The notes beneath the pieces were generated by a model. The model ran no database searches. It was not told the origin of the DNA and was given only the letters and a program-made list of their open reading frames with translations. DNA of 64,000 nt from an uncultured Syntrophaceae bacterium (GTDB lineage: Bacteria; Desulfobacterota; Syntrophia; Syntrophales; UBA2192): positions 3,430 to 67,429 of the forward strand of contig CAZPCN010000012.1 in assembly GCA_964585095.1 (NCBI GenBank), read 5' to 3'. Both the position numbers and the translations under genes were made by a program. Below are positions 27,231 through 47,667 of the stretch, one piece after another (the first letter of the stretch is position 1; each line of letters opens with the position of its first letter).

Positions 27231-27264
27231 GTCCTGAAAAACATCAGAACGGACGCATCCGACC

Positions 27265-28512: not shown

Positions 28513-29186
28513 TGTCCACCCCCGTCTGCCTCATGGAAAACATCACCAAGAGCTTCCACGTGGGGGACCAGGATCTGCACGTCCTCAAGGGCGTCAACCT
28601 CCGGATCGAGCCGGGCGAATTCACGGCGATCATGGGCACCTCCGGTTCCGGCAAGTCCACCCTGATGAACCTCATGGGCTGCCTCGACGTGCCCACCTCG
28701 GGCCGATTTCTCCTCGCCGGCCGCGACGTGATGCAGCTCAACGACGACGAGCTCTCCGAGCTTCGCAACGAGCACATCGGGTTCGTCTTTCAGAGCTTCT
28801 ACCTTCTCCCCTACGCCACGGTCCTGGAGAACGTCCTGGTGCCGACGCTCTACCGCGAAAAAAAGAAGGACCACGTCCGCGAACGGGCCATGGAGCTGCT
28901 CAAGCTCGTCGGGCTCGAGGAGCGGATAAAATTCCGCCCCACTCAGCTCTCGGGCGGCGAGCAGCAGAGAGTGGCCATCTGCAGGGCCCTCATCAACGAC
29001 CCGGAGCTTCTGCTGGCCGACGAGCCCACGGGTCAGCTCGACAGCCGAACCGCCGAGGAGATCATGAGCGTTTTGACCCGCACCAACGAGCGCGGCAAGA
29101 CCGTCGTCGTCATCACCCACGACGCGGACATCGCCGCTTACGCCCGGCGGACCATCCACATCCGCGATGGGATCATCAAGGAATAG
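28512..29186 (+). CDS. MacB/LolD-type ABC transporter ATP-binding protein
   Basis: GTSGSGKSTL, LSGGEQQRVAI, LLADEPTGQLD, VITHD. Confidence 0.95.
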   Translation: MSTPVCLMENITKSFHVGDQDLHVLKGVNLRIEPGEFTAIMGTSGSGKSTLMNLMGCLDVPTSGRFLLAGRDVMQLNDDELSELRNEHIGFVFQSFYLLPYATVLENVLVPTLYREKKKDHVRERAMELLKLVGLEERIKFRPTQLSGGEQQRVAICRALINDPELLLADEPTGQLDSRTAEEIMSVLTRTNERGKTVVVITHDADIAAYARRTIHIRDGIIKE

Positions 29187-30401
29187 ATGGAACGGTTTTC
29201 CCTTCTGCTCATCCAGTCCTACGAAGCCGTCAAGGCCTTCAAGCTCAGGACCTTCTTCTGCCTCGTGAGCGTCGCCCTGGGGATCTCGGCCATCACGATC
29301 ATCGTCGCCGCCACGGAGGGCGCCTACAAGAAGGCCTTCGACATCGTCGCGAGCTTCGGCCCCGACTCCGTCATGCTCATGGGCGGAAGCGAGGAGTCCC
29401 GCGCCATCGGGCAGAGGGAAAAGACGATCACCCTGGAAGACGTGGAGGCCATTCGCCAGGCCTTCCCCACGGCCTATGTCGTCGCCCCCTCGTCGTGGGT
29501 GGGAAGCGCCACCGTCTCCTACAAGGGCAACCGCTACCAGAGCCAGATCGTGGGCTCCACGAGCGATTACAGCGTTGCCTGGACGTGGCCCGTCGTCGAG
29601 GGCTCAGACTTCACCGAGGACGACATCCGGCGCTCCGCCAACGTGGGGATCATCGGTCAGGAAACGGCCCGGGAACTCTTCGGCGATCAGAGCCCGGTGG
29701 GCAAGTTCGTCCAGATCCGCAACCTTCCCGTCCAGATCGTGGGCGTGCTCTCCGAACGAGGAACGTCGCCCGGGGGCGGCAGCCTCGACAACCGGATCAT
29801 CATGCCCTACACGACGGTAATGAAGAAGCTCATCAACGAGCAGCGCTACGTCCATGCCATGCGCCTGCGCTTCACCGACCTGGAAAACATCGACGGGCGT
29901 GTCGAGGAACTCAAGCGGCTTCTTCGCTACCGTCACCGGATCCCCGACGGCCAGCCCGACGACTTCAGGATCTTCACGTCCAAGGACATCGTCAAGTTCC
30001 TGGTGGCGCTGACGGGCTCCCTCGTGGTCTTTATCGGGGTCGTGGGCGTCATCTCCCTCGTCGTCGCAGGGTTCGTCCTGGCAAACCTGTTCCTGCTTTC
30101 CGTGAAGGAGCGGGTCAAGGAAATCGGGATCCGCCGCTCCGTGGGCGCCCGCAAGAAGGACATCCTGACGCAGTTTCTCACGGAGGCCGTGATGATCACG
30201 TCCGCCGGGGGCATCGTGGGGTTCGTCCTCGGCGTGATCTCGGCCCAGCTACTCACGTACGTGGCCGAATTTCCCGTGTACTTTTCCTGGAAGGCCTTCG
30301 TCATCGGTCTCGTTCTGTCCTGGGCCGTCGGGGTGGGATTCGGCCTTCACCCGGCACGGCAGGCGGCAAACCTGAAGCCGATCGAGGCGATACGGACCTA
30401 A
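29187..30401 (+). CDS. MacB/FtsX-type ABC permease
   Basis: N-terminal TM, large periplasmic domain, SVKERVKEIGIRRSVGA, QFLTEA. Confidence 0.93.
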   Translation: MERFSLLLIQSYEAVKAFKLRTFFCLVSVALGISAITIIVAATEGAYKKAFDIVASFGPDSVMLMGGSEESRAIGQREKTITLEDVEAIRQAFPTAYVVAPSSWVGSATVSYKGNRYQSQIVGSTSDYSVAWTWPVVEGSDFTEDDIRRSANVGIIGQETARELFGDQSPVGKFVQIRNLPVQIVGVLSERGTSPGGGSLDNRIIMPYTTVMKKLINEQRYVHAMRLRFTDLENIDGRVEELKRLLRYRHRIPDGQPDDFRIFTSKDIVKFLVALTGSLVVFIGVVGVISLVVAGFVLANLFLLSVKERVKEIGIRRSVGARKKDILTQFLTEAVMITSAGGIVGFVLGVISAQLLTYVAEFPVYFSWKAFVIGLVLSWAVGVGFGLHPARQAANLKPIEAIRT

Positions 30402-30411
30402 ACGCTAGAAC

Positions 30412-30509
30412 GTGAGAAGGTGAAAGGGTGAGAACGTTGGATAGGATCACTGCCGGTTTCCTGCTCCATGCTGCCCCACCCTTCTTACCCTCTCACCCTC
30501 TTACCCTCT
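30412..30509. repeat. Octamer inverted-repeat element
   Basis: GTGAGAA-GGTGAAAG-GGTGAGAA-CGTTGGAT ... CTTCTTACC-CTCTCACC-CTCTTACC. Confidence 0.75.
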
Positions 30510-30570
30510 GCGTGATGCGGCAATTCGTGTTCAGCTCCGGCTGCCCTGACAAGAATAAAGAGATGGCTCG

Positions 30571-31800
30571 ATGGACCTGAGACGCGTCCTGCTCAACCTG
30601 AAGATCGCGCGGCGATCCCTGGTGCAGTTCAAATGGCGCACCGCTCTTGCGGTGCTGGGCGTGTTTTTCGGCACCTTTTCCCTCATCATCGTCTCCAATC
30701 TCTCCGGATCGCTTGCCGTCAAGACCGAGCAGGAGATCGACAGCCTCGGCAAGAATCTCCTCATCGTCCGAAGCGGCATCGTGCGCCGCGTGGGGGCGGG
30801 CACGCCCCTGATGAGCCAGGCGACAACCCTCACGCCGGAGGACGCCCGGGCGATCCGGGAATCCATCCCCGCCGTTGCCGATCTGTCCGCCGCGGGGTAC
30901 AAGACCTTCCCCGTCCGATACGGAAACGTCTCCCTGAAGGGGATTCTCGTCGGCGGCGTGGAGCCGAATTTCCAGGACATCCGGAACTTCCACGCCCGGG
31001 AAGGAAGCTTCATCTCCGAGCAGGACAACCTCGACCGCAACAGGGTGGCCGTCCTGGGCCGAACCGTCGTGGAGAAGCTCTTCGGCGACGAAGACCCCCT
31101 CGGGAAGAACATCCTGATCTGGCGCGTGCCCTTCCAGGTGATCGGCATCATGGAGGAGAAGGGATCGGACGTCTCCGGGGCCGATCAGGACAACCAGATC
31201 TTCGTCCCCCTGCAGACCTACCTGAAGGTCCTGGTCAACAAGACGAATGTGAGCAACATCTTCGTCCACGTCACCCGAGACGATCTCATTCCCTCGGCCA
31301 AAACCGACATGGAAGCCCTGCTGCGCAAGCGCCACAAGATCGGGCCGGGGCAGAACGACGACTTCGCCGTCATCGACATGAAGGACGTCATGGCCCTCAA
31401 GGCGCAGGCCATGGATCTCATCACGGTGCTCGGGAGGATCGCCGCGGCGGTCTCCTTCATCATCGGCGGCCTCGGCATCCTCTCGATCATGATCCTCATC
31501 GTCAACGAGCGGAAGCTCGAGATCGGGATCCGCCGCGCCGTCGGGTCGCGCAAGCGGGACATCGTGCTGCAGTTCCTGATCGAGTCCTCCATCATCTCGC
31601 TTGCGGGCGGCATGATCGGCGTCTTCTCGGGGGCCCTCATCAGCGTCATCCTGCTGGGCGTCTTGAAATACCCCTTCACGATTTCCCTCGCGGGCCTCGC
31701 CATCGCCTTCACGGCCTCCGTCCTCGTCGGGGTTTTGGCGGGCATCTACCCGTCCAAGAAGGCCACCCAGTTCGAGCCCGTGGACATCCTGCGCACGTAG
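30571..31800 (+). CDS. Second MacB/FtsX-type ABC permease
   Basis: RTALAVLGVFFG, VNERKLEIGIRRAVG, QFLIES, GIYPSKKA. Confidence 0.93.
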   Translation: MDLRRVLLNLKIARRSLVQFKWRTALAVLGVFFGTFSLIIVSNLSGSLAVKTEQEIDSLGKNLLIVRSGIVRRVGAGTPLMSQATTLTPEDARAIRESIPAVADLSAAGYKTFPVRYGNVSLKGILVGGVEPNFQDIRNFHAREGSFISEQDNLDRNRVAVLGRTVVEKLFGDEDPLGKNILIWRVPFQVIGIMEEKGSDVSGADQDNQIFVPLQTYLKVLVNKTNVSNIFVHVTRDDLIPSAKTDMEALLRKRHKIGPGQNDDFAVIDMKDVMALKAQAMDLITVLGRIAAAVSFIIGGLGILSIMILIVNERKLEIGIRRAVGSRKRDIVLQFLIESSIISLAGGMIGVFSGALISVILLGVLKYPFTISLAGLAIAFTASVLVGVLAGIYPSKKATQFEPVDILRT

Positions 31801-31911: not shown

Positions 31912-32433
31912 ATGGCGGAAATCAAAAGTACCATCGACTTGATCATGGAGCGCACGAAAAACCTCTCCGCAAGCGCGGAAGAGCGCGAGGCCTGGCACCG
32001 GCAGGAGCTTGAAAAGCACATCCGGAGCCTCATCCAGCGGCTCCTGGACTACAGCCTCACTCTCGATGACGTCAAGGACGAGTTGGAAAAGGAAAAGAAG
32101 AACGGCCGCGCCGCGGAAGCCATGGAATACCTGAAGAGCGCCCTGGCCGCGCATGTCGACCCCGATGCGGACAACGAGCGGCTCTTCCGGATCGCCAACG
32201 AGCTTGCCGGAACGCCCGAGAAGCGGCTTCAGGACACCCTTCGGTCCTGCCAGGCGGAGTTTTTCGCCAGGAAGACCGTCCTGGCGGAGCGGCAACGAGG
32301 GGAGCTGGAATCGGCGGGGATCATGGGTTCGGCTGTCCTGCCCAACCCCGAGGCAGACCCGCAGTGGAAAGCGCAGAGGGAGCAGATGCAGGCTGCCTGC
32401 TCGAAGCGCTTCCACGGGGTCATAAATAGTTGA
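31912..32433 (+). CDS. Conserved hypothetical helical protein
   Basis: MAEIKSTIDLIMERTKNL start after GGAGAAAG; coding-like codon usage. Confidence 0.75.
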   Translation: MAEIKSTIDLIMERTKNLSASAEEREAWHRQELEKHIRSLIQRLLDYSLTLDDVKDELEKEKKNGRAAEAMEYLKSALAAHVDPDADNERLFRIANELAGTPEKRLQDTLRSCQAEFFARKTVLAERQRGELESAGIMGSAVLPNPEADPQWKAQREQMQAACSKRFHGVINS

Positions 32434-33061
32434 ACCAGAAATCCTTGATCATCTTGAAGTTCTTCCTGACGTTTTCGCGCCCGGTCACCACGTCCCCGTG
32501 ACCCGGGCAGAGGACCTCCACGTCGAGCTCCGCCAGCCTCGTGATGCTCTCCTTGAGCTGCCTGCCCGACCCGCCGGGCAGGTCCGTCCTTCCGATGCTC
32601 TGGCTGAAGACCACGTCCCCCGTGAAGAGCGCCTTCTTCTCCGGCCAGTACAGGCAGACCGAGCCCGGGGAATGGCCCGGCGTCAGGAGCACCTGAAAGG
32701 CCCTGTCCCCGATCGCCAGTTCGCCCTCCTGGAGAAAGAACGCCGGCAGGGGAAAATCCGTGCGGGAGCCCAGGTACTTCATGACGAACTCGTAGTCGAT
32801 GCGGCTCATGGCCCACCGGGTGGAGGGACCGAAGGACCCCACCGTCTCGAGATGATCGGGATGCCCGTGGGTGACCAGGACGGCGTCGATCTGCTCCGGG
32901 CTGATGCCGATCCGCTCCAGGCCCCTGCGGACGTGCTGGAAGAGGTGACGGTGTCCCGGGTCGATGAGGATTTTCTTCGTTCCGTCGACGAAGAAGCTGT
33001 TGCAGTTGTTCTCGGTCGTGCTCTGCCAGAGGAACCCGTAGAGGCCGTCAATAATTTTCAT
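32420..33061 (-). CDS. MBL-fold metallo-hydrolase (glyoxalase II-like)
   Basis: LIDPG, THGHPDH, TPGHSPGS, FTGD, PGHG. Confidence 0.92.
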   Translation of the reverse strand: MKIIDGLYGFLWQSTTENNCNSFFVDGTKKILIDPGHRHLFQHVRRGLERIGISPEQIDAVLVTHGHPDHLETVGSFGPSTRWAMSRIDYEFVMKYLGSRTDFPLPAFFLQEGELAIGDRAFQVLLTPGHSPGSVCLYWPEKKALFTGDVVFSQSIGRTDLPGGSGRQLKESITRLAELDVEVLCPGHGDVVTGRENVRKNFKMIKDFWFNYL

Positions 33062-33202: not shown

Positions 33203-33946
33203 CTACACCTGACGTATGAGCTGCAAGATATTCCGGTTGACGACGTTCTCGAAATCCTCCTCCTTCAGCCCCAGGCTTCTGACCTTTGAAAGCTCGCTCG
33301 AGGGAATGCCGAAGGGGAAGTCGCTGCCGAAGAGCAGCTTGCGGCTGCCGTAACGCTTCAGGAACTGCCCCATCTCCCGGGTCGACGCAAGGGCCGTGTC
33401 GGCGTAGACCGTGTCGGCGTCCCACACGCCCGCCTCGAAGAGCGCGTCGAATCCGCCGTTGAGGCCCCCGAGATGAGGAATGATGACCGGGGTGCGCCCG
33501 GCCACCCGCTCGATGAAATAGAGGGTGTTCCGGAAGGACTCCTCCAGGACGACGGGAAGCCGCAGCCGGTAGATCTCTTCCAGGAACGCCTCGCACGCCG
33601 GGTCGTCATAGTGGTAGACCGGCTCGTACTCGTGGCGGTGCCACTTGATCCCCCGGTAGCCCTTCTTCAGCTCGCCCTTTCGGAAATCGTTCCAGACGAA
33701 GTAGTACGCGTGGATGTCGGGGTCCCGCTGCTGGATCTCGAGGAGGTACTCGTTGGCCAGCTGCCGGCAGGCAACCCAGCGGGCGTTGTCCTCGAAGTCG
33801 GCGTCGTACCGGTCGTAAATGTCCTCCACGGGGGGATAGAGGCAGGCCCCCTGGATGCCCGCCCGGTCCAGGTAGGCCCGGATCAATTCGATGGGCTGAT
33901 CCGAATTCTGGATTCCGCAGTGCATGTGGGAGTCGATGATCTTCAT
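33203..33946 (-). CDS. Amidohydrolase family 2 protein
   Basis: IIDSHMH, IKWH, IIPHLGG, YADTA, LLFGSDFP. Confidence 0.85.
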   Translation of the reverse strand: MKIIDSHMHCGIQNSDQPIELIRAYLDRAGIQGACLYPPVEDIYDRYDADFEDNARWVACRQLANEYLLEIQQRDPDIHAYYFVWNDFRKGELKKGYRGIKWHRHEYEPVYHYDDPACEAFLEEIYRLRLPVVLEESFRNTLYFIERVAGRTPVIIPHLGGLNGGFDALFEAGVWDADTVYADTALASTREMGQFLKRYGSRKLLFGSDFPFGIPSSELSKVRSLGLKEEDFENVVNRNILQLIRQV

Positions 33947-33953
33947 GGTCCCG

Positions 33954-34697
33954 TCATGCTTTCTGTGCTGCCATGAGCGCCCTGACGCGCTCCAGGTCCG
34001 CCGGGGTGTCCACCTCGATGGAGTCGAACTCCGTCTCCACCACCTTGATCCGGTGCCCGTGCTCCAGGGCCCGGAGCTGCTCCAGGGCCTCCAGCTTCTC
34101 CAGCGCCCCCTGGGGGAGTTTCGTGAAGGCAATCAGGAAGGACTTCCGGTAGGCGTAGATGCCGTGATGCTTCCAGTAGTCGGCCTTGCGGCCCCGGTCC
34201 CGCACGAAGGGGATCGTGGAACGCGAGAAGTACAGGGCAAAGTGGTCCTTGTCGAAGACGACCTTGACGGCATTGGGGTCGGTCAGCTCCTCGTCCCTGC
34301 GGATCCGGTAGATCAGCGTCGAGAATTCCACCGTCGTATCCTCGAGGAGCGGCTGCACGACTTCGTCGATCTGGGCGGGCTCGAAGGTAGGCTGGTCGCC
34401 CTGGATGTTGACGACGATGTCCGTGTCTGCCAGGCCCAGCGTGTCCACCGCCTCGGCGATGCGGTCCGTGCCCGAGGGGTGATCCACCGAGGTGAGGATG
34501 GCCCGCCCGCCGAATTTCTCCACGGCCTCGAAGATCCGCCTGTCGTCCGTGGCCACTGCGGCCATCGAGGCGGTCTTCGATTTCAATACCCGTTCGTAGA
34601 CGTGCTGGATCATGGGCTTGCCGAGGACATCGGCCAGCGGCTTCCCCATGAACCGCGACGACTGATACCGCGACGGGATGATGACAACGACCTTCAT
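33954..34697 (-). CDS. kdsB: CMP-Kdo synthetase (3-deoxy-manno-octulosonate cytidylyltransferase)
   Basis: IIPSRYQSSRFMGKPL, VATDD, HPSGTDRI, VNIQGDQP, LYFSRSTIP, HHGIYAY, LEQLRAL. Confidence 0.95.
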   Translation of the reverse strand: MKVVVIIPSRYQSSRFMGKPLADVLGKPMIQHVYERVLKSKTASMAAVATDDRRIFEAVEKFGGRAILTSVDHPSGTDRIAEAVDTLGLADTDIVVNIQGDQPTFEPAQIDEVVQPLLEDTTVEFSTLIYRIRRDEELTDPNAVKVVFDKDHFALYFSRSTIPFVRDRGRKADYWKHHGIYAYRKSFLIAFTKLPQGALEKLEALEQLRALEHGHRIKVVETEFDSIEVDTPADLERVRALMAAQKA

Positions 34698-34791
34698 GTC
34701 TTCCGCTCTCTTGGAAGTTTGTAAGCCTGGCGCGCGTGAGCGGGATTCTTCCGGCGAATAGACGGTTTTCGACCGCTCTGATTTTCTGTCC

Positions 34792-34911
34792 GGCTGTTCA
34801 AAAACGGCCAGATGCAAGGCGCCTGACGTCCTGAGGAGTGAGGCGTACTGAGCCGTACGTTGAACGACGAAGGACAAAGGCAACGAAGGAGATGGTCGTT
34901 TTTCAACAGTC
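34792..34911. mobile_element. 120-bp MITE-like element with terminal inverted repeats
   Basis: Left GGCTGTTCAAAAACGGCCA; right end reverse-complements to GACTGTTGAAAAACGACCA (16/19 match); no ORF; internal CGTAC/GTACG hairpin. Confidence 0.7.
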
Positions 34912-34915
34912 GGCT

Positions 34916-35070
34916 ACGGTTGCTTCACTGCAGGCGCAGTAACTCGCCCTGCGGGCTCAAACAGTTTGCGCTGCGGACGTTTCGCTTCGCGAAGAGCGGT
35001 TAACGACCGGGGGTGCATCCCGCGAGGGGGCACGATCATGACATGCTCTTCCTTGCCGGGGAGCAACCGT
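34916..35070. repeat. 155-bp REP/MITE-like palindromic element
   Basis: Ends ACGGTTGCT / AGCAACCGT (9-bp perfect inverted repeat); internal AACTCGCCCTGCGGGCTCAAACAG and CGCTTCGCGAAG hairpins. Confidence 0.5.
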
Positions 35071-35177
35071 CGGTTGCGTTGCGACAAAACGCGTCTAACT
35101 TCACGCTCCAGAATCCCGCTCAATCGCTCATTGGAAAATACTGGGCAGCCGCCCCTCTTCGCATGCCAGGCTGCCTC

Positions 35178-36149
35178 TCAGAGGTACGGATCAGCCTGCT
35201 GCAGATGCCCCTTCACATAATCCTCGATGGCGTCCTCGAGCGAGCGGCACCTGATCGGGCATCCTGCCTTGCGCAGCTTGTCCATCTTCGCCTCCGTGAC
35301 GTACTGGTACTGGTCGCGGATCTCGAGGGGCATGTCGATGTATTCGATGCTGGGCTTCACGCCCGAGGCCTTGAACACGGCCGTCACCAGATCGTTCCAC
35401 GTGCGGGCCTTTCCCGTGCCGAGGTTGAAGATCCCCCTGGCCTTCGGGTTATTCAGCAGCCACCACATCACCTCGACGCAGTCCTTCACGTAGACGAAGT
35501 CGCGGACCTGCTCGCCGTGGCCGAAGCCCTTCCGGTGGGACTTGAAGAGCCGCACCTTTCCCGTCTGCCGGATCTGTCCGAAGGACTTGTGCACGACGCT
35601 GCGCATCTCGCCCTTGTGGTACTCGTTGGGCCCGAAGACGTTGAAGAACTTGATCCCCGTGACCTTGCCCAGGAGCTTGTTGCGCATGACCCAGAGGTCG
35701 AAGAGCTGCTTCGAGTAGCCGTACATGTTGATGGGCTGCAGCTTCGGCGTCGTCCGGTCGTCGTCGGTAAACCCGAGGGACCCGTCGCCGTAGGTCGCTG
35801 CGCTCGATGCGTAGAGGAATGGGATCTTCTTCGAGACGGCCCACTTCGCCAGCGCGCAGCTGTAATGGAAGTTGTTCTCCATGAGGTAGTCGGCGTCGCG
35901 CTCCGTCGTCGACGAGCAGGCCCCCATGTGGATGACGGCCTTGGCTTTGAAAGGAAGCGTGCCCTCGCAGAGCATCTCGTAGAAGGCGTCCTTGTGGACG
36001 AAGTCGGCGTAGCGCTTCTTGACGAGGTTCTTCCACTTGTCCGTGGTGCCCAGCGCATCGACGATCAGGATGTCGTCGATGCCCTCCTGGTTGAGTTTCC
36101 AGACGACCGCGCTGCCGATGAAACCGGCCCCGCCGGTGACGATGTACAT
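35178..36149 (-). CDS. hldD: ADP-L-glycero-D-manno-heptose 6-epimerase
   Basis: IVTGGAGFIGS, HMGACSSTTE, YASSAATYG, PINMYGYSK, FFNVFGPNEYHKG, RDFVYVKD. Confidence 0.96.
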   Translation of the reverse strand: MYIVTGGAGFIGSAVVWKLNQEGIDDILIVDALGTTDKWKNLVKKRYADFVHKDAFYEMLCEGTLPFKAKAVIHMGACSSTTERDADYLMENNFHYSCALAKWAVSKKIPFLYASSAATYGDGSLGFTDDDRTTPKLQPINMYGYSKQLFDLWVMRNKLLGKVTGIKFFNVFGPNEYHKGEMRSVVHKSFGQIRQTGKVRLFKSHRKGFGHGEQVRDFVYVKDCVEVMWWLLNNPKARGIFNLGTGKARTWNDLVTAVFKASGVKPSIEYIDMPLEIRDQYQYVTEAKMDKLRKAGCPIRCRSLEDAIEDYVKGHLQQADPYL

Positions 36150-36229
36150 GCTTTTCTCCTGGTTCGCATGCCGCTTCGCAGCGGGCGAAGGGCATACGGC
36201 TTAGGGCTGAAGGCAATCCATAATTTTCT

Positions 36230-37432
36230 TCAGATCACTTTTGCGGCCTTCTGCGCCGCCTCGGCAATCTGCTCGACGCGGCCGGCGGGCATCCGGATCG
36301 GGATGATCATGAACAACGTCCGCGACATGAGGTCCTCCGCCTTCGGGTAGAGCTCGCGGCCGTACTCCGCCTTCCCCATGTAGGACGGATCCATGAACGG
36401 GTACTTCTTCGAGTTCACGGTGCTCTTCGAGAGGAAGTGCTCCCAGTTGGGCAGGTAGTGCCAGAAGTTTTCGTAGAAGTAGATGAAGTCGACGCCCTGC
36501 GCGGACATGGCCTTCTGGAAGGCCTTTGTGGCCGCCGCCGACGGGAGGTTGAATCCGATGAAGGTGCCCGTGTCGCCCTGCGGGTCGGGGATGTTCCGGA
36601 AACCGATGCCGGGGACCACGCTCAGGGCCTTGCGCACGGCAGCCTTGTTCTTCAGCTGCTCGGCGACGATCATGTCGAGCTTGCGGAGCTGGGCAAGTCC
36701 CAGGGCGCCCTGGAGCTCGTTCATGCGATAATTGACGCCGAGAATGAACCGGCCCTCGAGGGCGCGGGGCACCTTCGGGTTGTGGTCGTGGCCGTGGTCG
36801 TGGTACCAGTCGGCGCGGAGGTAAAGGTTTTTGTCATTCGTGATGACCATCCCGCCCTCGCCCGTCGTCATGGTCTTGTAGAAATCGAAGCTGAGGATCC
36901 CCATGTCGCCGAAGGTTCCCAGCTTTTTCCCGTGGAAGCTTCCGCCCGCGCTCTGGGCGTTGTCCTCGAGCACCTTCAGGTTGTGCTTCCTGGCGACCTC
37001 CATGATCCGGTCGATGTTTGCCGGCGCCCCGCACATGTGGACGGGGATGACGGCCTTCGTGTAGGGCGTCAGCCGCTTCTCGACGCTCTCGGGGTCCAGG
37101 TTCAGGCTCTCGTCGATGTCCCCCGTGATCGGGATCGCGCCGACGGCGAGAACGGCCTCGTAGGTGGCATTGAACGTGAACGGCGGCACGATCACCTCGT
37201 CGCCGGGCCCGACATCCATCGCAGCCAATGCGACGATGAGGGCGGCCGTCCCCGATGTCACACCGAGCGTGTGGGCGGCCCCGAGATACCTGGCGAACTC
37301 CTGCTCGAACTGCTGGACCTTGAATACGCCCTTCCGCTCCTTGTCAAACCCGTATCGCATCAGGATGCCCGTCTCCATGACTTCCAGGACTTCCTTCAAT
37401 TCCTCTTTTCCGAATAGTTCTGAACCGGCCAT
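36230..37432 (-). CDS. kdnA: DegT/DnrJ-family sugar aminotransferase, KdnA-like (8-amino-Kdo transaminase)
   Basis: SFDFYKTMTTGEGG (PLP Lys). KdnA-like stretches (recalled): M.G.ELFG.EE..EV..VME.G, DHGHDH, ALGLAQLRKLD, IPDP.GD, WHYL.NW. Near kdsB and hldD. Confidence 0.72.
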   Translation of the reverse strand: MAGSELFGKEELKEVLEVMETGILMRYGFDKERKGVFKVQQFEQEFARYLGAAHTLGVTSGTAALIVALAAMDVGPGDEVIVPPFTFNATYEAVLAVGAIPITGDIDESLNLDPESVEKRLTPYTKAVIPVHMCGAPANIDRIMEVARKHNLKVLEDNAQSAGGSFHGKKLGTFGDMGILSFDFYKTMTTGEGGMVITNDKNLYLRADWYHDHGHDHNPKVPRALEGRFILGVNYRMNELQGALGLAQLRKLDMIVAEQLKNKAAVRKALSVVPGIGFRNIPDPQGDTGTFIGFNLPSAAATKAFQKAMSAQGVDFIYFYENFWHYLPNWEHFLSKSTVNSKKYPFMDPSYMGKAEYGRELYPKAEDLMSRTLFMIIPIRMPAGRVEQIAEAAQKAAKVI

Positions 37433-37490
37433 TTCTTGCTGCCTCCAGTTTCAAATGGTTGTGTTTGGCTATAACGAAGGAAGGGGATGA

Positions 37491-37532
37491 CTCCCCCTCA
37501 CCCCGACCCTCTCCCGCGTAGGGGAGAGGGAG
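37491..37532. repeat. CCCTCACCCC-type REP-like palindrome
   Basis: CTCCCCCTCACCCCGACCCTCTCCC-GCGTA-GGGGAGAGGGAG. Confidence 0.7.
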
Positions 37533-37548
37533 ATTGCGGTAACGTTCC

Positions 37549-38706
37549 TTATAAGGCCGTGCGGTAGATCGCGATGGCGTCCTCGAGGGTCACCTTGCGG
37601 GGGTTGTTCTCCAGCGGCCGCGCGACCGTCATAGCCACCCGCGCCATCTCGGGGAAGTCCTCCTCGGGGATCCCGAGCTCCCCGAGCCCCGTGGCGATGC
37701 CGCAGTCCTCGATGAGGACGTCGACGGCCTCCACGGCCAGCATGGCCGCGTCACGCACGGAGAGTCCTTCCGTGTTTTCCCCCATGACCTCGGCCACGAC
37801 GGCGAACTTCTCCAGGGCCCCCGGCAGGTTGTACTCCATGATGCGGGGGAGCATCAGCGTGTTGGCAACACCGTGGGAGATCCCGTACTTGCCGCCCAGG
37901 GGATAGGACAGGGAGTGGGCCGCGCCGACACCGGCGTTTGCCAGACCGATTCCCGCATAGAGGCTTCCCAGCATCTGGCCCTCGCGGGCCTCGAGATCCT
38001 TGCCGTTGTGGACGCAGGTCCTCAGGTTTTCCGCGATCAGCCCGATGGCCTCCAGGGAGAACATCTCGCTTGCGGGACTGGCGATCACCGACGTGTAGGA
38101 CTCAATGGCGTGGCACAGCGCGTCCATGCCGGAGGCGGCCGTCGGCTGGGGCGGCAGGCTCACGGTCAGCTCCGGGTCGAGCAGCGCCAGATCGGGATAC
38201 ATGAAAACGCTGTTCATCCCCTCTTTCTTCCGCAGATCATGGCGTACGAAGACGGCCGTGAAGGTCACCTCGCTTCCCGTGCCTGCCGTCGTGGGAACCA
38301 TGATCGTCGGCATCCCCGGGCCGGGAACCTTGTTGAGACCCAAAAAGTCTTTTGCCTGGGCCCCGTGGGCGGCCACGACGGCCACGGCCTTGGCCACGTC
38401 CATGGCGCTCCCGCCCCCGATCCCGATGACGATGTCGCACTTGCCCTTCAGGGCGAGCTTGGCCCCCTCGTCGGCCTGTTCGAGGGGCGGCTCCGGCAGC
38501 ACCTTGTCGTACAGGACTGCCTTCATCCCTTCCCGTTCGAACATCTCGAGGATCTTGTCGCGCATCCCCAGCTTTGCCAGGTTGCCGTCTATGGCGATAA
38601 AGGGCTTCTTGGCCCTCAGGTCCCGCACCTGGCCGACAAGCCCGGAAAAGGAGCCGCAGCCGAAGACGATTTTTTTCGCTCCCGTGAAGGAAAAGGTTTT
38701 CTGCAT
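37549..38706 (-). CDS. Iron-containing (group III) alcohol dehydrogenase; positional KdnB analogue
   Basis: IVFGCGS, IGIGGGSAMDVAK, PTTAGTGSEVT, GMDALCHAIE, AHSLSY, HGVAN; start trimmed to MQKTFSF. Confidence 0.9.
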   Translation of the reverse strand: MQKTFSFTGAKKIVFGCGSFSGLVGQVRDLRAKKPFIAIDGNLAKLGMRDKILEMFEREGMKAVLYDKVLPEPPLEQADEGAKLALKGKCDIVIGIGGGSAMDVAKAVAVVAAHGAQAKDFLGLNKVPGPGMPTIMVPTTAGTGSEVTFTAVFVRHDLRKKEGMNSVFMYPDLALLDPELTVSLPPQPTAASGMDALCHAIESYTSVIASPASEMFSLEAIGLIAENLRTCVHNGKDLEAREGQMLGSLYAGIGLANAGVGAAHSLSYPLGGKYGISHGVANTLMLPRIMEYNLPGALEKFAVVAEVMGENTEGLSVRDAAMLAVEAVDVLIEDCGIATGLGELGIPEEDFPEMARVAMTVARPLENNPRKVTLEDAIAIYRTAL

Positions 38707-38792
38707 GGTACGATCCTCCTGCAACCCCCTTTTATGCTTATGGAATTCCCGAGGGCGCTTCGGTGAAGAATGGCGCAGACCACCCCTGAAAG

Positions 38793-39527
38793 TCAAGGAT
38801 TTTGTTTCCCGCAGAACCAGTCGAGCTGACGGCAGAACCCCCGGATGATCTTCACCTCCCGCGATCGCAGCTGCACCCGCGAGAGGAAGCGGCGGATGCT
38901 CGTCATCCAGTACTCGGGGTTCTGCGGGTTGATGAACCCGATGCGGAGGCTCACCTCCTTGATGTGCTCGTACATCCCCTCGAGTTCCCCCGACGAGGCG
39001 AGCCTCGGCGCGAAGGTCTTTTTCTCGGAGGCGGCCGTGAAAATCTCGTAGCACAGGATCATGACGGCATGGGACAGGTTGATGGACCGGAAACGCTCCG
39101 AGACCGGGATGTGAACGAGCAGGTGCCCGTAACGGAGTTCGTCGTTGGTCAGCCCCGCGTCCTCGGCCCCGAACAGGAGGGCGACGCGGTTCTTCTGCGA
39201 GATCTCCACCAGCTTCGCCGCGGCTTCTCGCGGCGTCTGGAAGGCGGGCCTGGCGCGGCCCACCCGGGCCGTCGTCGCCACGATGTACTGAAACCCCGAC
39301 AGGGCCTTTGCCAGGTCGCGATCGTATCGGATCCGGTCCACCACGTCGGCGGCCAGATGGGTCGACATCTGGCGGATTTTCTCTTCCTCGTACTCGGCCT
39401 CGCCGACAACCAGGATGTTCTCGACACCCATATTCTTGGCGCAGCGGGCCACGGAACCGATGTTGCCCGGATATTTGGGCCTGTTCAGGACGACGGTGAC
39501 GTTGTCCAGGAGGACGTGAGCGGCCAT
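38793..39527 (-). CDS. trmJ: TrmJ/LasT SPOUT RNA methyltransferase
   Basis: VVLNRPKYPGNIGSVARCAKNMG, ALLFGAEDAGLTN, SINLSHAV. Confidence 0.85.
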   Translation of the reverse strand: MAAHVLLDNVTVVLNRPKYPGNIGSVARCAKNMGVENILVVGEAEYEEEKIRQMSTHLAADVVDRIRYDRDLAKALSGFQYIVATTARVGRARPAFQTPREAAAKLVEISQKNRVALLFGAEDAGLTNDELRYGHLLVHIPVSERFRSINLSHAVMILCYEIFTAASEKKTFAPRLASSGELEGMYEHIKEVSLRIGFINPQNPEYWMTSIRRFLSRVQLRSREVKIIRGFCRQLDWFCGKQNP

Positions 39528-39655
39528 GCATCGAACCTCGCAGAAAGGTGGCGCGAGTGTACCATAGTTCCGGGGGCCGATTCCTTTTTTTTCGTTGCCT
39601 CGCCCGGCCCTGTCTGGTAATCGGAAATTGGCTTATGGCTAAGGGCTCAAGGCAA

Positions 39656-40321
39656 ATGGCAAAAGAAGGGGATTTTCGCAAGATCCTGGTCTTGGCGGCG
39701 GCAGAGATGGGCATCGATCTGCCGGGGGACCGGCTCGCCCTTCTGGAGGCCTACCGCGAGACCCTGCTGCTGTGGAACAGCAAGATGAATCTCGCCTCCC
39801 TGCAGTCCGACCTCGATTTGCCCGTGCGTCATTTCATCGACTCGCTCACCCTGCTCCCCCACCTGCCCCCCGGGCCCGGGAGTCTGCTCGACATCGGCTC
39901 CGGTGCCGGATTTCCGGCGATCCCGATCAGGATTTTTCGCAACGACCTCCATGTCACCCTGCTGGAAGCCTCCCGCAAGAAATGCTCGTTCCTCAAGGAA
40001 CTCTCCCGCAGGCTTGGCCTGCAGGACGTGACCGTTCTCAACTCCCGCCTGGAAGAGCTGTTGAAACAGCCCCAGAGACCCGCCTATGATGTCATTACGT
40101 CCAGGGCGACCCTCAAGCTGCCCGAGCTTGTCCAGAAGGGTCTCCCCCTGTTGAAAAAAGGGGGACTCCTTGCGGCCATGAAGGGTCCCGGTCTCGATGA
40201 GGAGATTGCCGCCCTGGAATCGGTAAAAACGGTAGATTTCCGGGTGGTTGCAAATATTGCACTCTCTCTTCCCCTGACCGGCGACCGCCGTCAGCTCGTG
40301 CTTGTGGATAAACCCTCCTGA
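39656..40321 (+). CDS. rsmG: 16S rRNA m7G527 methyltransferase
   Basis: WNSKMNL, RHFIDSL, LDIGSGAGFPAI, LLEASRKK, TSRA, AMKG. Confidence 0.95.
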   Translation: MAKEGDFRKILVLAAAEMGIDLPGDRLALLEAYRETLLLWNSKMNLASLQSDLDLPVRHFIDSLTLLPHLPPGPGSLLDIGSGAGFPAIPIRIFRNDLHVTLLEASRKKCSFLKELSRRLGLQDVTVLNSRLEELLKQPQRPAYDVITSRATLKLPELVQKGLPLLKKGGLLAAMKGPGLDEEIAALESVKTVDFRVVANIALSLPLTGDRRQLVLVDKPS

Positions 40322-40471
40322 ACCGGCAAATCACAGAAGCATAAATGATTGATTTCTCAAGTTAATTTTGTTTTCCGTCCCCGCCAAAAATTCCTTTGAA
40401 AAACCCCTTTTTTGTGCTAGCATCGACCAATTTCATCCAACCGGCAAAACATCCTGTTTCTGCGATACAGC

Positions 40472-41242
40472 ATGCGAAAAATTATATGTATTGCCAATCA
40501 GAAGGGAGGGGTCGGAAAGACCACGACAGCCATCAATCTGTCCTCGTCCCTCGCCACGGCGGAGAAAAGAGTCCTGCTCATCGACGGAGACCCCCAGGGC
40601 AATACAACGAGCGGGATGGGAATAGACAAGGCATCGATTGAAAACAGGAATCTTTACCATGCCCTCATCGGGCGATGCAGCCTCGAGGAAGTCATCGTCA
40701 AGACCCAGATCCCGACGCTCGACGTGGCCCCCTCGAACCAGGACCTCGTCGGCGTGGAAATCGAGTTCGTGTCCCTCGAGGAGCGGGAAAAGAAGCTCAG
40801 GGCCCTGCTGGCCGGACTGCAGACACCCTATGACTACTGTATCATCGACTGCCCGCCGTCACTGGGCTTTCTGACGCTCAACGCGCTCGTGGCGTCGGAC
40901 TACGTGATCATCCCGCTGCAGTGCGAGTATTTTGCCCTCGAGGGGCTCGCGCACCTGTTGAACACGGTCAAGCTCGTACGCTCCAGGATGAACCCGTCGC
41001 TTTCCCTCGGCGGGATCCTGCTCACCATGTTCGACGTTCGAAACCGTCTTTCTCACAGGGTCGTCGAGGAAGTGCGAAACCACTTCGGCGGCAAGGTGTT
41101 CAAAACGGTCATTCCGCGCAATGTCCGGATCTCGGAGAGCCCCAGCCACGGGCTCCCGATCATTCTCTACGACGTGAAGTCCCGCGGGGCCGTGGCCTAC
41201 ATGGATCTGGCCCACGAAATCCTCTACGACGGGAGAGCTTAG
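40472..41242 (+). CDS. parA: Chromosome partitioning ATPase ParA/Soj
   Basis: IANQKGGVGKTTT, DGDPQGN, IDCPPSLG, PLQCEYFALEG, IPRNVRISESPSHG. Confidence 0.97.
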   Translation: MRKIICIANQKGGVGKTTTAINLSSSLATAEKRVLLIDGDPQGNTTSGMGIDKASIENRNLYHALIGRCSLEEVIVKTQIPTLDVAPSNQDLVGVEIEFVSLEEREKKLRALLAGLQTPYDYCIIDCPPSLGFLTLNALVASDYVIIPLQCEYFALEGLAHLLNTVKLVRSRMNPSLSLGGILLTMFDVRNRLSHRVVEEVRNHFGGKVFKTVIPRNVRISESPSHGLPIILYDVKSRGAVAYMDLAHEILYDGRA

Positions 41243-41243
41243 G

Positions 41244-42092
41244 ATGATCAAGAAGAACTCGCTTGGAAAAGGCCTCGGCGCCATGTTTCCGGACCTTCTC
41301 GAGAAGATCGGGGACAAGCCGGTCCTGATGACCTGCGCCATCGAGGAGCTGGTTCCGAACCGCTACCAGGCGAGGAAGGACTTCGATCCCCAGGAGCACA
41401 AGAGCCTCGTCACCTCCATCCGTGAGAGCGGGATCATCCAGCCGATCGTGGCAAGAAAGTTCGACGGCGGCTACGAGATCATCGCCGGGGAGCGGCGCTG
41501 GCGGGCCGCCCAGGAGGCCGGCCTCAAGAGCGTGCCGGTCATCGTGCGGGACGCAGCCGACCAGGATGCCGCCATTTTCTCGCTCATCGAAAACCTCCTG
41601 AGAGCCAATCTCAACCCTCTCGAGGAGGCCGAGGCGTTTCACCGGCTCATCCACGAGTTCGGCCTGTCCCACGAGGCCCTGTCCACAACCGTCGGCAAGG
41701 ACCGATCCACGGTGACCAACGCCCTTCGGCTGCTGAAGCTGCCGAAGGAAATCCGCGATGCCATTTCGAGAAAAACCCTCTCGGCGGGCCACGCAAGGGC
41801 CATTCTCGCGCTTGAAACGGTAGAAGAACAGAACCGTCTCTTCAAGACGATCCTCTCCAAGGGCCTCAACGTGAGGGAAGCCGAGGCGTTTGCGCGGGGA
41901 AAAAAGAAGGCAAAGCCCGCCGCGAAGACACCCGGCCACGACGAGCATCTGGCAGAGCTGGAGAAGCGTCTTGCCAGGCGGCTCATGACAAGGGTTCACA
42001 TCCACACCAGGAAGCGGGGAGGAGCCATCGAAATCCGTTTCGGCTCCGCCGATGAGCTCGACCGGTTGCTCGACGTCCTGCTGAGGTCATGA
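41244..42092 (+). CDS. parB: Chromosome partitioning protein ParB/Spo0J
   Basis: LGKGLGA, PNRYQAR, GIIQPI, IIAGERRWRAA, IENLLRANLNPLEEA, GKDRSTVTNALRLL. Confidence 0.97.
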   Translation: MIKKNSLGKGLGAMFPDLLEKIGDKPVLMTCAIEELVPNRYQARKDFDPQEHKSLVTSIRESGIIQPIVARKFDGGYEIIAGERRWRAAQEAGLKSVPVIVRDAADQDAAIFSLIENLLRANLNPLEEAEAFHRLIHEFGLSHEALSTTVGKDRSTVTNALRLLKLPKEIRDAISRKTLSAGHARAILALETVEEQNRLFKTILSKGLNVREAEAFARGKKKAKPAAKTPGHDEHLAELEKRLARRLMTRVHIHTRKRGGAIEIRFGSADELDRLLDVLLRS

Positions 42093-42217
42093 AAAAAGCT
42101 GAGGAAACACTGTACGTCAGTTTTTCCCTGAATCATTGCAAATTGATGGAACCGGGAGAGTTCTTTAGTTCCAGATATCAACAAATGTTTACACACTGTT
42201 TATAGGGAAGGGAAAAA

Positions 42218-43570: not shown

Positions 43571-43799
43571 CAGGGATGTCAACGGTCGATCTACAGGGAA
43601 CATCGAGGCAATCCGGTGTTTGGAAACGGGAATCGAAGTTGTTCACATATGAACAGACCCTATTACGAGTAATCCTGTCTTTCCTCTTTTTGTTATTAAG
43701 TTAGAGTAAATAGGACCTGTGGGATGTGTGGAAAGAGCGGGAATGGGACAGGCCTTGAGGTGAGCCACCGAAAACAAGTGATGGAAAGGAAACGGGCTT
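43571..43799. other. oriC: Replication origin oriC (dnaA-dnaN intergenic)
   Basis: DnaA-box-like TTGTTCACA (43639), TATGAACAG, TGTGGGATG (43718), TGTGGAAAG (43727); trio-like CTA-TTA-CGA-GTA; AT-rich core 43676-43712. Confidence 0.8.
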
Positions 43800-44921: not shown

Positions 44922-44960
44922 CAGCAAGCCGCAAGCAACAAGGCAAAGAAGGAGTCGTGA

Positions 44961-47387
<2,427 letters not shown>

Positions 47388-47420
47388 GCGACCCGGTGAC
47401 CGGCGGCGCGTCCGGCCAAC

Positions 47421-47525: not shown

Positions 47526-47667
47526 ATCCGTCAGGGGGCCTTGCACCCGGGCATTTTTGACCAGCCCGAAAAAGAGGAGTGACACGAATCTGCCGGACGG
47601 CAGATCATCCTTTCAGCTCCCCCCACGGAAGGGGGGAATTTTGTTTCCCGAAGGAGAGTCTTTTTTC

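What the first reader, a model, noticed from the sequence alone, without database searches (positions are those of the whole stretch)
33203..38706. 8-amino-Kdo (Kdo8N)-type LPS cluster in an anaerobe, with a generic Fe-ADH in the KdnB position
Seen: co-oriented Fe-ADH, KdnA-like aminotransferase, hldD, kdsB and an amidohydrolase. Established: in Shewanella, KdnB (Fe-ADH fold, reported as an O2-using oxidase) and KdnA convert Kdo to Kdo8N before KdsB activation. By recollection the aminotransferase shares KdnA-specific stretches, while the ADH looks like an ordinary NAD(P)-binding group III enzyme (GGGS, TTAGTGSE). Inference: an oxygen-independent route to Kdo8N or a related amino-octulosonate. 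The amidohydrolase 7 nt after kdsB may be an extra tailoring step.
Basis: partly seen in the sequence, partly recalled or inferred. Interest (0 to 1): 0.65.

Follow-up and report, generated by a model that had tools for sequence, protein, structure and literature searches.

The report
Amino-Kdo LPS operon, alternative dehydrogenase
An anaerobic sludge bacterium carries genes that most likely make 8-amino-Kdo, a lipopolysaccharide sugar thought to be unique to Shewanella, but its first enzyme is a different alcohol dehydrogenase from the known one, and this variant pairing is common among its sulfate-reducing and syntrophic relatives.

Summary
The minus strand carries trmJ, an Fe-ADH, a DegT-type aminotransferase, hldD, kdsB, an amidohydrolase and an MBL hydrolase.

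The aminotransferase belongs to the KdnA family. It is about 46% identical to S. oneidensis KdnA over its full length, at twice the score of any NDP-sugar aminotransferase, and it falls in the KdnA clade against this genome's own DegT paralogues.

The ADH is not a KdnB orthologue (27% identity). It is a FucO/DhaT/Mdh-like Fe-ADH.

I sampled 401 genomes of the phylum, and 108 have KdnA:
- 71 have this ADH type directly upstream on the same strand.
- 26 have a true KdnB instead.
- None has both.
- 67 of 68 genomes holding an ADH at least 47% identical also have KdnA.

kdsB, and sometimes waaA, follows the pair. The ADH is therefore very probably the Kdo 8-dehydrogenase of a variant Kdo8N pathway.

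True KdnB orthologues occur in strict anaerobes such as Desulfatibacillum, and KdnB keeps the same NAD and metal residues. The ADH swap is thus not needed for an oxygen-free route. The amidohydrolase shows no association with KdnA.

No biochemistry exists for any of this. I rate it a new variant of a known kind, of moderate interest.

The parts
37549..38706 (-). Group III Fe-ADH of the FucO/DhaT/Mdh-like branch. Proposed NAD+-dependent Kdo 8-dehydrogenase, a functional analogue of KdnB but not its orthologue.
   Evidence: Pfam Fe-ADH and ADH_Fe_C. Best PDB hits are methanol, 1,3-propanediol and lactaldehyde dehydrogenases at 229-269 bits; KdnB 5k8c scores 88 bits. Identity to a Shewanella KdnB is 27%. 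It lies directly upstream of kdnA in 71 of 108 KdnA-positive genomes of the phylum. D40, GGGS97-100, D195, H199, H264 and H278 are conserved.
36230..37432 (-). KdnA-family PLP aminotransferase. Proposed 8-oxo-Kdo:glutamate aminotransferase.
   Evidence: PDB 5k8b (S. oneidensis KdnA) scores 365 bits over residues 1-395; the next hit is perosamine synthetase at 180 bits over residues 39-257. Identity to S. oneidensis KdnA is 46%, and family-specific blocks are invariant: DHGHDH 212-217, W324/H325/Y326, W330 and H332, and Lys186. It falls in the KdnA clade against the genome's own DegT paralogues.
35178..36149 (-). hldD, ADP-L-glycero-D-manno-heptose 6-epimerase. An LPS inner-core gene inserted between kdnA and kdsB in Syntrophales only.
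   Evidence: TIGR02197 scores 401 bits against a cutoff of 275. It is present between kdnA and kdsB in many Syntrophales loci and absent from that position in other families. It is the only copy in the genome.
33954..34697 (-). kdsB, CMP-Kdo synthetase. The genome's only copy, proposed to activate Kdo8N as well as Kdo.
   Evidence: NF003952 scores 327 bits against a cutoff of 193, and TIGR00466 scores 244 against 155. It is 54% identical to a Shewanella KdsB and is a single copy. It follows ADH-kdnA in most loci of other families.
34698..35177 (-). Unusually long hldD-kdsB spacer of 480 nt. It is transcribed.
   Evidence: Gaps computed. In relatives the two genes abut or overlap. An RNA contig covers 34740-35137. 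An earlier first-reader note calls it two MITE-like inserts; I did not check that.
33203..33946 (-). Divergent Amidohydro_2 (TIM-barrel metal hydrolase) gene, 7 nt after kdsB. Co-transcribed, but not a conserved part of the pathway.
   Evidence: Pfam PF04909 scores 31 bits. There is no PDB relative with E below 0.06. An RNA contig with no mismatches spans the kdsB-amidohydrolase junction, 33805-34144. Orthologues are unlinked to kdnA in all other sampled genomes and are not enriched in KdnA-positive genomes.
32420..33061 (-). MBL-fold hydrolase, last gene of the co-oriented run. A neighbour only.
   Evidence: Pfam Lactamase_B scores 112 bits. It follows the amidohydrolase in about a dozen Syntrophales loci only.
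38793..39527 (-). trmJ-type RNA 2'-O-methyltransferase, a syntenic upstream neighbour. Transcripts read through into the ADH.
   Evidence: TIGR00050 scores 191 bits against a cutoff of 167. It is conserved upstream of the ADH across Syntrophales. An RNA contig, 38643-39016, spans the junction.

Best explanation
The operon trmJ-ADH-kdnA-hldD-kdsB of this Syntrophales bacterium encodes a variant of the Shewanella Kdo8N pathway.

Proposed steps:
1. The Fe-ADH (37549-38706) oxidises the C8 primary alcohol of free Kdo to 8-oxo-Kdo, using exchangeable NAD+ and its bound metal.
2. The KdnA-family PLP enzyme (36230-37432) transaminates the aldehyde with glutamate to give 8-amino-3,8-dideoxy-D-manno-octulosonate. 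This step pulls the unfavourable oxidation forward.
3. The genome's single KdsB makes CMP-Kdo8N.
4. The single WaaA, encoded elsewhere in the genome, puts it on lipid A.

The ADH is a paralogue recruited to the KdnB role. It is a paralogous displacement within the Fe-ADH superfamily, not an orthologue.

Shown here: gene identities, family membership of KdnA, non-orthology of the ADH to KdnB, tight and mutually exclusive genomic coupling of the two ADH types with KdnA, and transcription across the gene junctions.

Inferred: the substrate (Kdo), the cofactor (NAD+), and the product's presence in LPS.

The amidohydrolase and the MBL gene are passengers.
For: KdnA membership:
-. PDB 5k8b is the best hit at 365 bits over the full length. 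Identity is 46% with family-specific blocks conserved. The clade support against this genome's DegT paralogues is 99.

Coupling of ADH and kdnA:
- In 80 Syntrophales loci the ADH is directly upstream of kdnA wherever the upstream DNA is present, except in 3.
- In 401 evenly sampled genomes of the phylum, 108 have KdnA. Of these, 71 have the window-type ADH (45-100% identity) upstream on the same strand with gaps of 21-540 nt (one of 2397 nt). That orientation holds in 71 of 71.
- Of 68 genomes with an ADH at least 47% identical, 67 have KdnA.

Complementarity with KdnB:
- 26 of the 108 instead carry a KdnB orthologue at 50% identity or more, 16 of them directly downstream of kdnA. None has both types. 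All 26 KdnB genomes have KdnA.
- The own genome, 99% complete, has no KdnB. Its only other Fe-ADH is of the BdhA/YqhD type.

Link to Kdo:
- kdsB follows the pair in most families, and waaA follows kdsB in L117 and L123. This matches kdnA-kdnB-kdsB(-waaA) in Shewanella and Thiomicrorhabdus.

Sequence features:
- Cofactor and metal residues are intact.
- Positions that separate KdnA-linked ADHs from their nearest unlinked relatives (149-153, 165, 255) align with FucO 150-154, 166 and F254, on or beside its substrate pocket. At positions 150 (Thr) and 165 (Asn) they carry the KdnB residue.

Expression:
- Metatranscriptome contigs with no mismatches span the ADH-kdnA and kdsB-amidohydrolase junctions.
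Against: - There is no biochemical or LPS-structural evidence for any member of this ADH clade or this KdnA subclade.
- The window's KdnA lies outside the subclade that holds the characterised enzyme, and 46% identity does not fix the substrate.
- KdnA-linked ADHs are not cleanly monophyletic in a quick ML tree. A clade of 15 unlinked ADHs (41-45% identical) nests among them with weak backbone support.
- Exceptions exist. G204, in the same order, keeps trmJ-ADH-hldD-kdsB but has lost kdnA. A complete Syntrophus chromosome (L032/G401) has kdnA-hldD-kdsB with no window-type ADH above 40% identity. Six KdnA-positive genomes show neither ADH type, some at contig ends.
- Linkage to kdsB could partly reflect that kdsB is the only copy and sits among core LPS genes.
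- Metatranscriptome contigs can contain DNA.
Confidence: 0.7

Rival explanations
1. The ADH/KdnA-like pair uses the same oxidise-then-transaminate logic on a different substrate. Candidates are another ulosonic acid or a heptose or polyol of the core. The product would be a related but different amino sugar acid, not Kdo8N.
For: - The window's KdnA is in a different subclade from the characterised enzyme.
- The ADH is not orthologous to KdnB.
- hldD, a heptose gene, is interposed in Syntrophales.
- Earlier unchecked notes of this scan describe KdnA/KdnB-like pairs inside nonulosonic-acid cassettes.
- KdnB-like proteins of 41-45% identity occur in genomes without KdnA.
Against: - Outside Syntrophales the order is ADH-kdnA-kdsB, sometimes followed by waaA, with no NeuB-type or other sugar-acid synthase within the loci examined.
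- The KdnA-family blocks beyond the DegT core are invariant between the two subclades.
- The two ADH types are mutually exclusive partners of one KdnA clade, which suggests one shared function.
- The genome has one kdsB and one waaA.
Confidence: 0.15
2. The ADH is an ordinary catabolic or detoxifying alcohol/aldehyde dehydrogenase that is only syntenic with kdnA. Another enzyme, or none, supplies the aldehyde substrate for KdnA.
For: - The best characterised relatives are methanol, 1,3-propanediol and lactaldehyde dehydrogenases.
- Unlinked ADHs of 41-46% identity are common in the phylum.
- G204 retains the ADH without kdnA.
- G401 has kdnA without this ADH.
Against: - The ADH sits upstream on the same strand with short gaps in 71 of 71 cases across many families.
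- Of 68 genomes with an ADH at least 47% identical, 67 have KdnA.
- There is no overlap with KdnB-carrying genomes.
- The own genome has no KdnB or other candidate.
- Pocket positions differ systematically from the unlinked clade.
Confidence: 0.08
3. One reading: the generic ADH replaces KdnB because KdnB needs O2, so the swap is an adaptation that makes Kdo8N synthesis possible in anaerobes.
For: - KdnB carries the EC name of an oxidase (the PDB 5k8c title is '8-oxidase').
- The window-type pair is found in strict anaerobes of sludge and digesters.
Against: - True KdnB orthologues next to kdnA occur in strictly anaerobic Desulfatibacillum, Ca. Desulfarcum, Desulforegulaceae and other Desulfobacterales-type genomes.
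- KdnB-type proteins keep Asp40, GGGS and all four metal ligands.
- From my own recollection of Zachman-Brockmeyer et al. 2016 (not held in the library): the KdnB crystal structure contains tightly bound NAD(H).
Confidence: 0.07

Closest known systems
Shewanella oneidensis Kdo8N pathway: KdnB (EC 1.1.3.48, PDB 5k8c), KdnA (EC 2.6.1.109, PDB 5k8b), KdsB (Gattis et al. 2013, cited through PMC4402001 and PMC5125639)
   Same: - A KdnA-family aminotransferase, 46% identical over its full length and in the same clade.
- An Fe-ADH-superfamily oxidoreductase encoded next to it.
- kdsB in the same operon, and waaA in some relatives.
- The same predicted chemistry: oxidise C8-OH, transaminate, activate with CTP.
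   Different: - The oxidoreductase is a different branch of the superfamily: 27% identity, 385 aa against 356 aa, FucO/DhaT/Mdh-like rather than cd08184.
- The gene order is ADH then kdnA, not kdnA then kdnB.
- hldD is inserted before kdsB.
- The host is a strictly anaerobic Syntrophales bacterium.
- The KdnA belongs to a sister subclade.
NAD-dependent group III alcohol dehydrogenases: FucO (E. coli lactaldehyde reductase), DhaT (1,3-propanediol oxidoreductase), Mdh (Bacillus-type methanol dehydrogenase)
   Same: - The highest sequence similarity, at 229-269 bits.
- The same length, GGGS motif, Asp at the end of beta-2, and Asp/His/His/His metal site.
   Different: - It is constantly coupled to kdnA-kdsB.
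- Residues at or beside the FucO substrate pocket differ: window 149-153, 165 and 255, with L255 in place of FucO F254. Two of them match KdnB.
- It is below every NCBIfam equivalog cutoff, at 307 bits or less against cutoffs of 523 or more.
KdnB-type kdnA-kdnB pairs in Desulfobacterota (Desulfatibacillum alkenivorans/aliphaticivorans, Ca. Desulfarcum epimagneticum)
   Same: The same phylum, an anaerobic lifestyle, the KdnA clade, and frequent linkage with kdsB and waaA.
   Different: They keep the orthologous KdnB (50-61% identity to a Shewanella KdnB) downstream of kdnA. Within the sampled genomes the two arrangements never co-occur.

Membership tests
KdnA (8-amino-3,8-dideoxy-alpha-D-manno-octulosonate transaminase, EC 2.6.1.109) | Closer over the full length to characterised KdnA than to any NDP-sugar, inosose or other DegT-family enzyme | tested here: met
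   PDB 5k8b scores 365 bits over residues 1-395. The next hit scores 180 bits over residues 39-257. No NCBIfam equivalog for NDP-sugar aminotransferases reaches its cutoff.
KdnA (8-amino-3,8-dideoxy-alpha-D-manno-octulosonate transaminase, EC 2.6.1.109) | Falls in one clade with S. oneidensis KdnA against paralogues | tested here: met
   The quick ML tree gives 99% SH-aLRT support for the KdnA clade against three own-genome DegT paralogues. The window protein sits outside the subclade (support 100) that holds the characterised enzyme.
KdnA (8-amino-3,8-dideoxy-alpha-D-manno-octulosonate transaminase, EC 2.6.1.109) | PLP-binding lysine and family-specific C-terminal blocks | tested here: met
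   K186 (SFDFYK), D212-H217 (DHGHDH), W324/H325/Y326, W330 and H332 are invariant across the window protein, S. oneidensis KdnA and 8 relatives.
KdnA (8-amino-3,8-dideoxy-alpha-D-manno-octulosonate transaminase, EC 2.6.1.109) | Transaminates 8-oxo-Kdo to Kdo8N | not testable with these tools
   This needs an enzyme assay or LPS analysis.
[quoted passage not shown] | Orthology to S. oneidensis KdnB | tested here: not met
   PDB 5k8c scores 88 bits at about rank 38. Identity to a Shewanella KdnB is 27%. The KdnB-type proteins form a separate clade with support 100. The genome has no KdnB at E<=1e-60.
[quoted passage not shown] | Encoded next to kdnA and kdsB (functional coupling) | tested here: met
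   The ADH is directly upstream of kdnA here and in 71 of 108 KdnA-positive genomes. It is mutually exclusive with KdnB.
Group III (iron-containing) alcohol dehydrogenases, NAD-dependent branch | Fe-ADH fold domains, GGGS dinucleotide motif, acidic residue for NAD ribose, Asp/His/His/His metal site | tested here: met
   PF00465 and PF25137 match. D40, G97-S100, D195, H199, H264 and H278 are invariant in all groups. The reading of D40 as an NAD+ preference is inference from FucO Asp39, by recollection.
KdsB (CMP-Kdo synthetase) | Scores above curated equivalog or subfamily cutoffs | tested here: met
   NF003952 scores 327 against a cutoff of 193, and TIGR00466 scores 244 against 155. It is a single copy in the genome.
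HldD (ADP-glyceromanno-heptose 6-epimerase) | Scores above the curated equivalog cutoff | tested here: met
   TIGR02197 scores 401 against a cutoff of 275.
Kdo8N pathway accessory step (amidohydrolase as tailoring enzyme) | Co-occurrence or linkage of the amidohydrolase with kdnA-kdsB across genomes | tested here: not met
   About 31 genomes of 401 carry a full-length orthologue. About 10 of those have KdnA, close to the background of 27%. None is linked to kdnA outside the window's close relatives.

The most novel reading that the evidence does not exclude
Kdo8N, or a very close amino-Kdo, is not a Shewanella speciality. It would be a common inner-core sugar of anaerobic Desulfobacterota, where about a quarter of genomes carry kdnA against about 0.3% of sampled Pseudomonadota. 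Its first enzyme would have been recruited at least twice from the Fe-ADH superfamily, with the two lineages converging on shared pocket residues (Thr150, Asn165). The more widespread partner in this phylum would be an ordinary NAD+-exchanging dehydrogenase that no database names.
Probability: 0.55. Interest if true: 0.62.

Novelty: new variant of a known kind. Interest (0 to 1): 0.5.

Why it matters
The literature held here states that Kdo8N occurs only in Shewanella (PMC4402001). In S. oneidensis, loss of the pathway increases sensitivity to polymyxin and bile salts (same review).

If this reading is right, an amino (zwitterionic) Kdo is a frequent feature of the outer membrane of syntrophic and sulfate-reducing anaerobes, which drive methanogenic digesters and sediments.

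A whole clade of proteins annotated only as 'iron-containing alcohol dehydrogenase' would then gain a specific function as Kdo 8-dehydrogenase.

It would also give a clean natural example of paralogous displacement, with two ADH lineages as mutually exclusive partners of one aminotransferase. That could help settle how KdnB itself turns over, as an oxidase or as an NAD-dependent enzyme.

Cultured carriers exist, so the claim can be tested directly.

Tried and rejected
1. I looked for a KdnB orthologue elsewhere in the genome. There is none. The only other Fe-ADH is of the BdhA/YqhD type.

2. I tested whether the amidohydrolase is a pathway component. It is rejected: there is no co-occurrence or linkage beyond close relatives. 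It has no informative PDB or NCBIfam relatives.

3. I tested whether KdnA-linked ADHs form a clean clade. The result is not clean. A clade of unlinked ADHs nests among them with weak backbone support, and the long branches (KdnB, Bdh, L118) make the root unreliable.

4. I tried to read Gattis 2013 and the KdnA/KdnB structure paper. Neither is held. Statements about O2 use and bound NAD(H) therefore rest on the EC and PDB names and on my own recollection.

5. The promoter and terminator scan was uninformative. It found 0 promoters, and terminators were at the chance level.

6. The genome-contig scan returned only Syntrophales among its 80 best loci. I obtained breadth from evenly drawn genome samples instead.

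7. The idea that the ADH swap is an adaptation to anoxia is rejected, because KdnB-type pairs occur in strict anaerobes.


Full report
**What is there.** The window has about 62% G+C. Its closest relatives at this locus are Syntrophales, Syntrophaceae and Smithella MAGs. Near-identical DNA is found in anaerobic-digester, sludge and wastewater metagenomes. The assembly is a 3.16-Mb MAG, 99% complete.

On the minus strand lie, in order of transcription:

| Gene | Coordinates |
|---|---|
| trmJ | 38793-39527 |
| Fe-ADH (385 aa) | 37549-38706 |
| DegT-family aminotransferase (400 aa) | 36230-37432 |
| hldD | 35178-36149 |
| kdsB | 33954-34697 |
| Amidohydro_2 protein | 33203-33946 |
| MBL-fold hydrolase | 32420-33061 |

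The gaps between successive genes are 86, 116, 80, 480, 7 and 141 nt.

To the left is a TolC/HlyD/ABC/MacB-type exporter. To the right are rsmG-parA-parB-dnaA-dnaN-gyrB-gyrA.

**The aminotransferase is a KdnA.** Against all PDB chains the best match is S. oneidensis KdnA (5k8b), at 365 bits over residues 1-395. The next family, perosamine synthetases, reaches 180 bits over residues 39-257 only.

In an alignment with S. oneidensis KdnA (46% identity) and eight relatives, several features are invariant. These are the PLP lysine (K186) and blocks outside the common DegT core: DHGHDH at 212-217, W324/H325/Y326, W330 and H332.

In a quick ML tree all KdnA-like proteins form one clade against the three DegT paralogues of this same genome, with 99% SH-aLRT support. 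Those partnered with a KdnB-type enzyme, including the characterised protein, form one subclade with support 100. The window protein lies in a sister group.

JGI already names many of these proteins '8-amino-3,8-dideoxy-alpha-D-manno-octulosonate transaminase'. NCBI calls them generic DegT aminotransferases.

**The ADH is not KdnB.** Its best PDB relatives are NAD-dependent methanol, 1,3-propanediol and lactaldehyde dehydrogenases at 229-269 bits. KdnB (5k8c) scores 88 bits.

I recovered a bona fide KdnB from Shewanella psychropiezotolerans, in a kdnA-kdnB-kdsB locus; it scores 725 bits against 5k8c. It is 27% identical to the window ADH.

Thiomicrorhabdus carries kdnA-kdnB-kdsB-waaA, with a KdnB 71% identical to the Shewanella one.

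The window's genome has no KdnB. Its only other Fe-ADH is a BdhA/YqhD type.

**The pairing is conserved and specific.** In 80 Syntrophales loci the ADH precedes kdnA wherever upstream DNA is present, with three exceptions. ADH and KdnA identities fall in step.

I then sampled 401 genomes drawn evenly from the phylum, which sequence names identify as Desulfobacterota/Thermodesulfobacteriota. The results were as follows.

- 108 genomes (58 of 256 genera) have a full-length KdnA.
- In 71 of them a window-type ADH (45-100% identity) lies upstream on the same strand, with gaps of 21-540 nt and one of 2397 nt. Orientation is the same in 71 of 71.
- Four more have the ADH unlinked or split by a contig end.
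- 26 carry a KdnB orthologue (50-61% identity) instead, 16 directly downstream of kdnA and 10 unlinked.
- None has both types.
- All 26 KdnB genomes have KdnA.
- 67 of 68 genomes with an ADH at least 47% identical have KdnA. The exception is at a contig end.

Outside Syntrophales the order is ADH-kdnA-kdsB, and in L117 and L123 waaA follows. The genome has a single kdsB, hldD and waaA.

This mutually exclusive, position-specific distribution is the main argument that the ADH performs the KdnB step.

**Limits of that argument.** In a quick ML tree the KdnA-linked ADHs are not cleanly monophyletic. A well-supported clade of 15 unlinked ADHs (41-45% identity) branches among them on a weak backbone, and the root lies on long branches.

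There are also exceptions:
- G204, in the same order, has trmJ-ADH-hldD-kdsB with kdnA gone.
- A complete Syntrophus chromosome has kdnA-hldD-kdsB but no such ADH above 40% identity.

**Sequence hints on mechanism.** D40 (end of beta-2), GGGS 97-100 and the metal ligands D195, H199, H264 and H278 are invariant in KdnA-linked ADHs, in unlinked ADHs and in KdnB-type proteins. At this level KdnB is as 'NAD-binding' as the window enzyme.

Some positions are at least 90% conserved in KdnA-linked ADHs but different in the unlinked clade. They cluster at 149-153, 165 and 255. They align with FucO 150-154 (including N151), V166 and F254. By my recollection these residues line or adjoin FucO's substrate pocket. 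One point fits that recollection. The FucO chain in that alignment has Ile at position 254; my memory is that wild-type FucO has Phe there, so this chain looks like an engineered variant. At positions 150 (Thr) and 165 (Asn) the KdnA-linked ADHs carry the KdnB consensus residue. This is suggestive only.

**Expression.** In a metatranscriptome (X25), contigs with no mismatches span three junctions:
- kdsB to amidohydrolase, 33805-34144
- ADH to kdnA, 37042-37822
- trmJ to ADH, 38643-39016

Another run covers the long hldD-kdsB spacer. Contigs carry no strand information and may include DNA, so this shows presence in RNA libraries and probable co-transcription, not proof.

(a) Oxygen. KdnB orthologues next to kdnA occur in Desulfatibacillum alkenivorans and aliphaticivorans, Ca. 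Desulfarcum, Ca. Desulfaltia and Desulforegulaceae. These are strict anaerobes by established knowledge. KdnB-type enzymes must therefore work without O2 there, and the ADH swap is not an anaerobic adaptation as such. From memory, the KdnB crystal structure (Zachman-Brockmeyer et al. 2016) holds tightly bound NAD(H). That paper and Gattis 2013 were not available.

(b) The amidohydrolase. Full-length orthologues occur in about 31 of 401 genomes, and about 10 of those have KdnA, which is the background rate. None is linked to kdnA. Even the three same-order genomes that have one carry it elsewhere. Adjacency to kdsB is limited to about a dozen close relatives. It has no informative homologue.

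**Distribution beyond the phylum.** Of 380 further genomes drawn evenly from the phylum of Thiomicrorhabdus (Pseudomonadota), only one, a Shewanella-like genome with kdnA-kdnB-kdsB, has a KdnA at E<=1e-80. The gene is thus far commoner in Desulfobacterota (27%) than in the phylum where it was discovered. A search with S. oneidensis KdnA also finds proteins at least 70% identical in Corallincola, Aliikangiella, Thiomicrorhabdus, Hydrogenovibrio and others.

**Known or new.** The held literature mentions Kdo8N only for Shewanella and says it is exclusive to that genus. No paper links a FucO-like ADH to KdnA. Public annotation calls the ADH 'iron-containing alcohol dehydrogenase'.

Earlier notes of this scan flagged the same cluster in related genomes, as well as KdnA/KdnB-like pairs elsewhere. 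They are unchecked leads and not independent evidence.

I file the locus as a new variant of a known kind: a KdnA-family member with a paralogous dehydrogenase in the KdnB role. My confidence in the pathway reading is 0.7 and the interest score is 0.5.

Noticed in passing
window 34698-35177: The hldD-kdsB spacer is 480 nt here, whereas the two genes abut or overlap in most relatives. It is covered by an RNA contig (X26, 34740-35137). An earlier first-reader note calls it two MITE-like inserts.
   Followed up: partly
window 39548-50166: The LPS operon lies next to the replication-origin region: rsmG, parA, parB, dnaA (42218-43570), dnaN, gyrB and gyrA, all on the plus strand. G+C dips to 0.52 at 42-44 kb.
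   Followed up: no
L133 (G204:C8:501339-512487): A same-order genome keeps trmJ-ADH-hldD-kdsB but has lost kdnA between the ADH and hldD. Its only KdnA-like gene is 41% identical, sits elsewhere, and lies on a long basal branch.
   Followed up: partly
L032 (complete 'uncultured Syntrophus sp.' chromosome OY762510.1): It has kdnA-hldD-kdsB with no window-type ADH upstream. The best ADH anywhere in that genome is only 40% identical. I did not check it for a KdnB type.
   Followed up: partly
Genomes G076, G135, G140, G201, G231, G258, G285, G358, G381: KdnB-like proteins of 41-45% identity occur in genomes without a KdnA at E<=1e-80. They probably belong to a different cassette with another aminotransferase.
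   Followed up: no
L134, L135 (G015, G271): In one family the window-type ADH is 50 kb and 375 kb away from kdnA-kdsB. It still clusters with the kdnA-adjacent ADHs of sister genomes, so the pair can be unlinked without loss.
   Followed up: partly
window 25893-31800: A five-gene exporter: a TolC-like OMP, a HlyD-type adaptor, an ABC ATPase and two different MacB/FtsX-type permeases. The substrate is unknown.
   Followed up: no
window 31912-32433: A 173-aa ORF with good coding statistics and no Pfam match, convergent with the end of the LPS operon.
   Followed up: no
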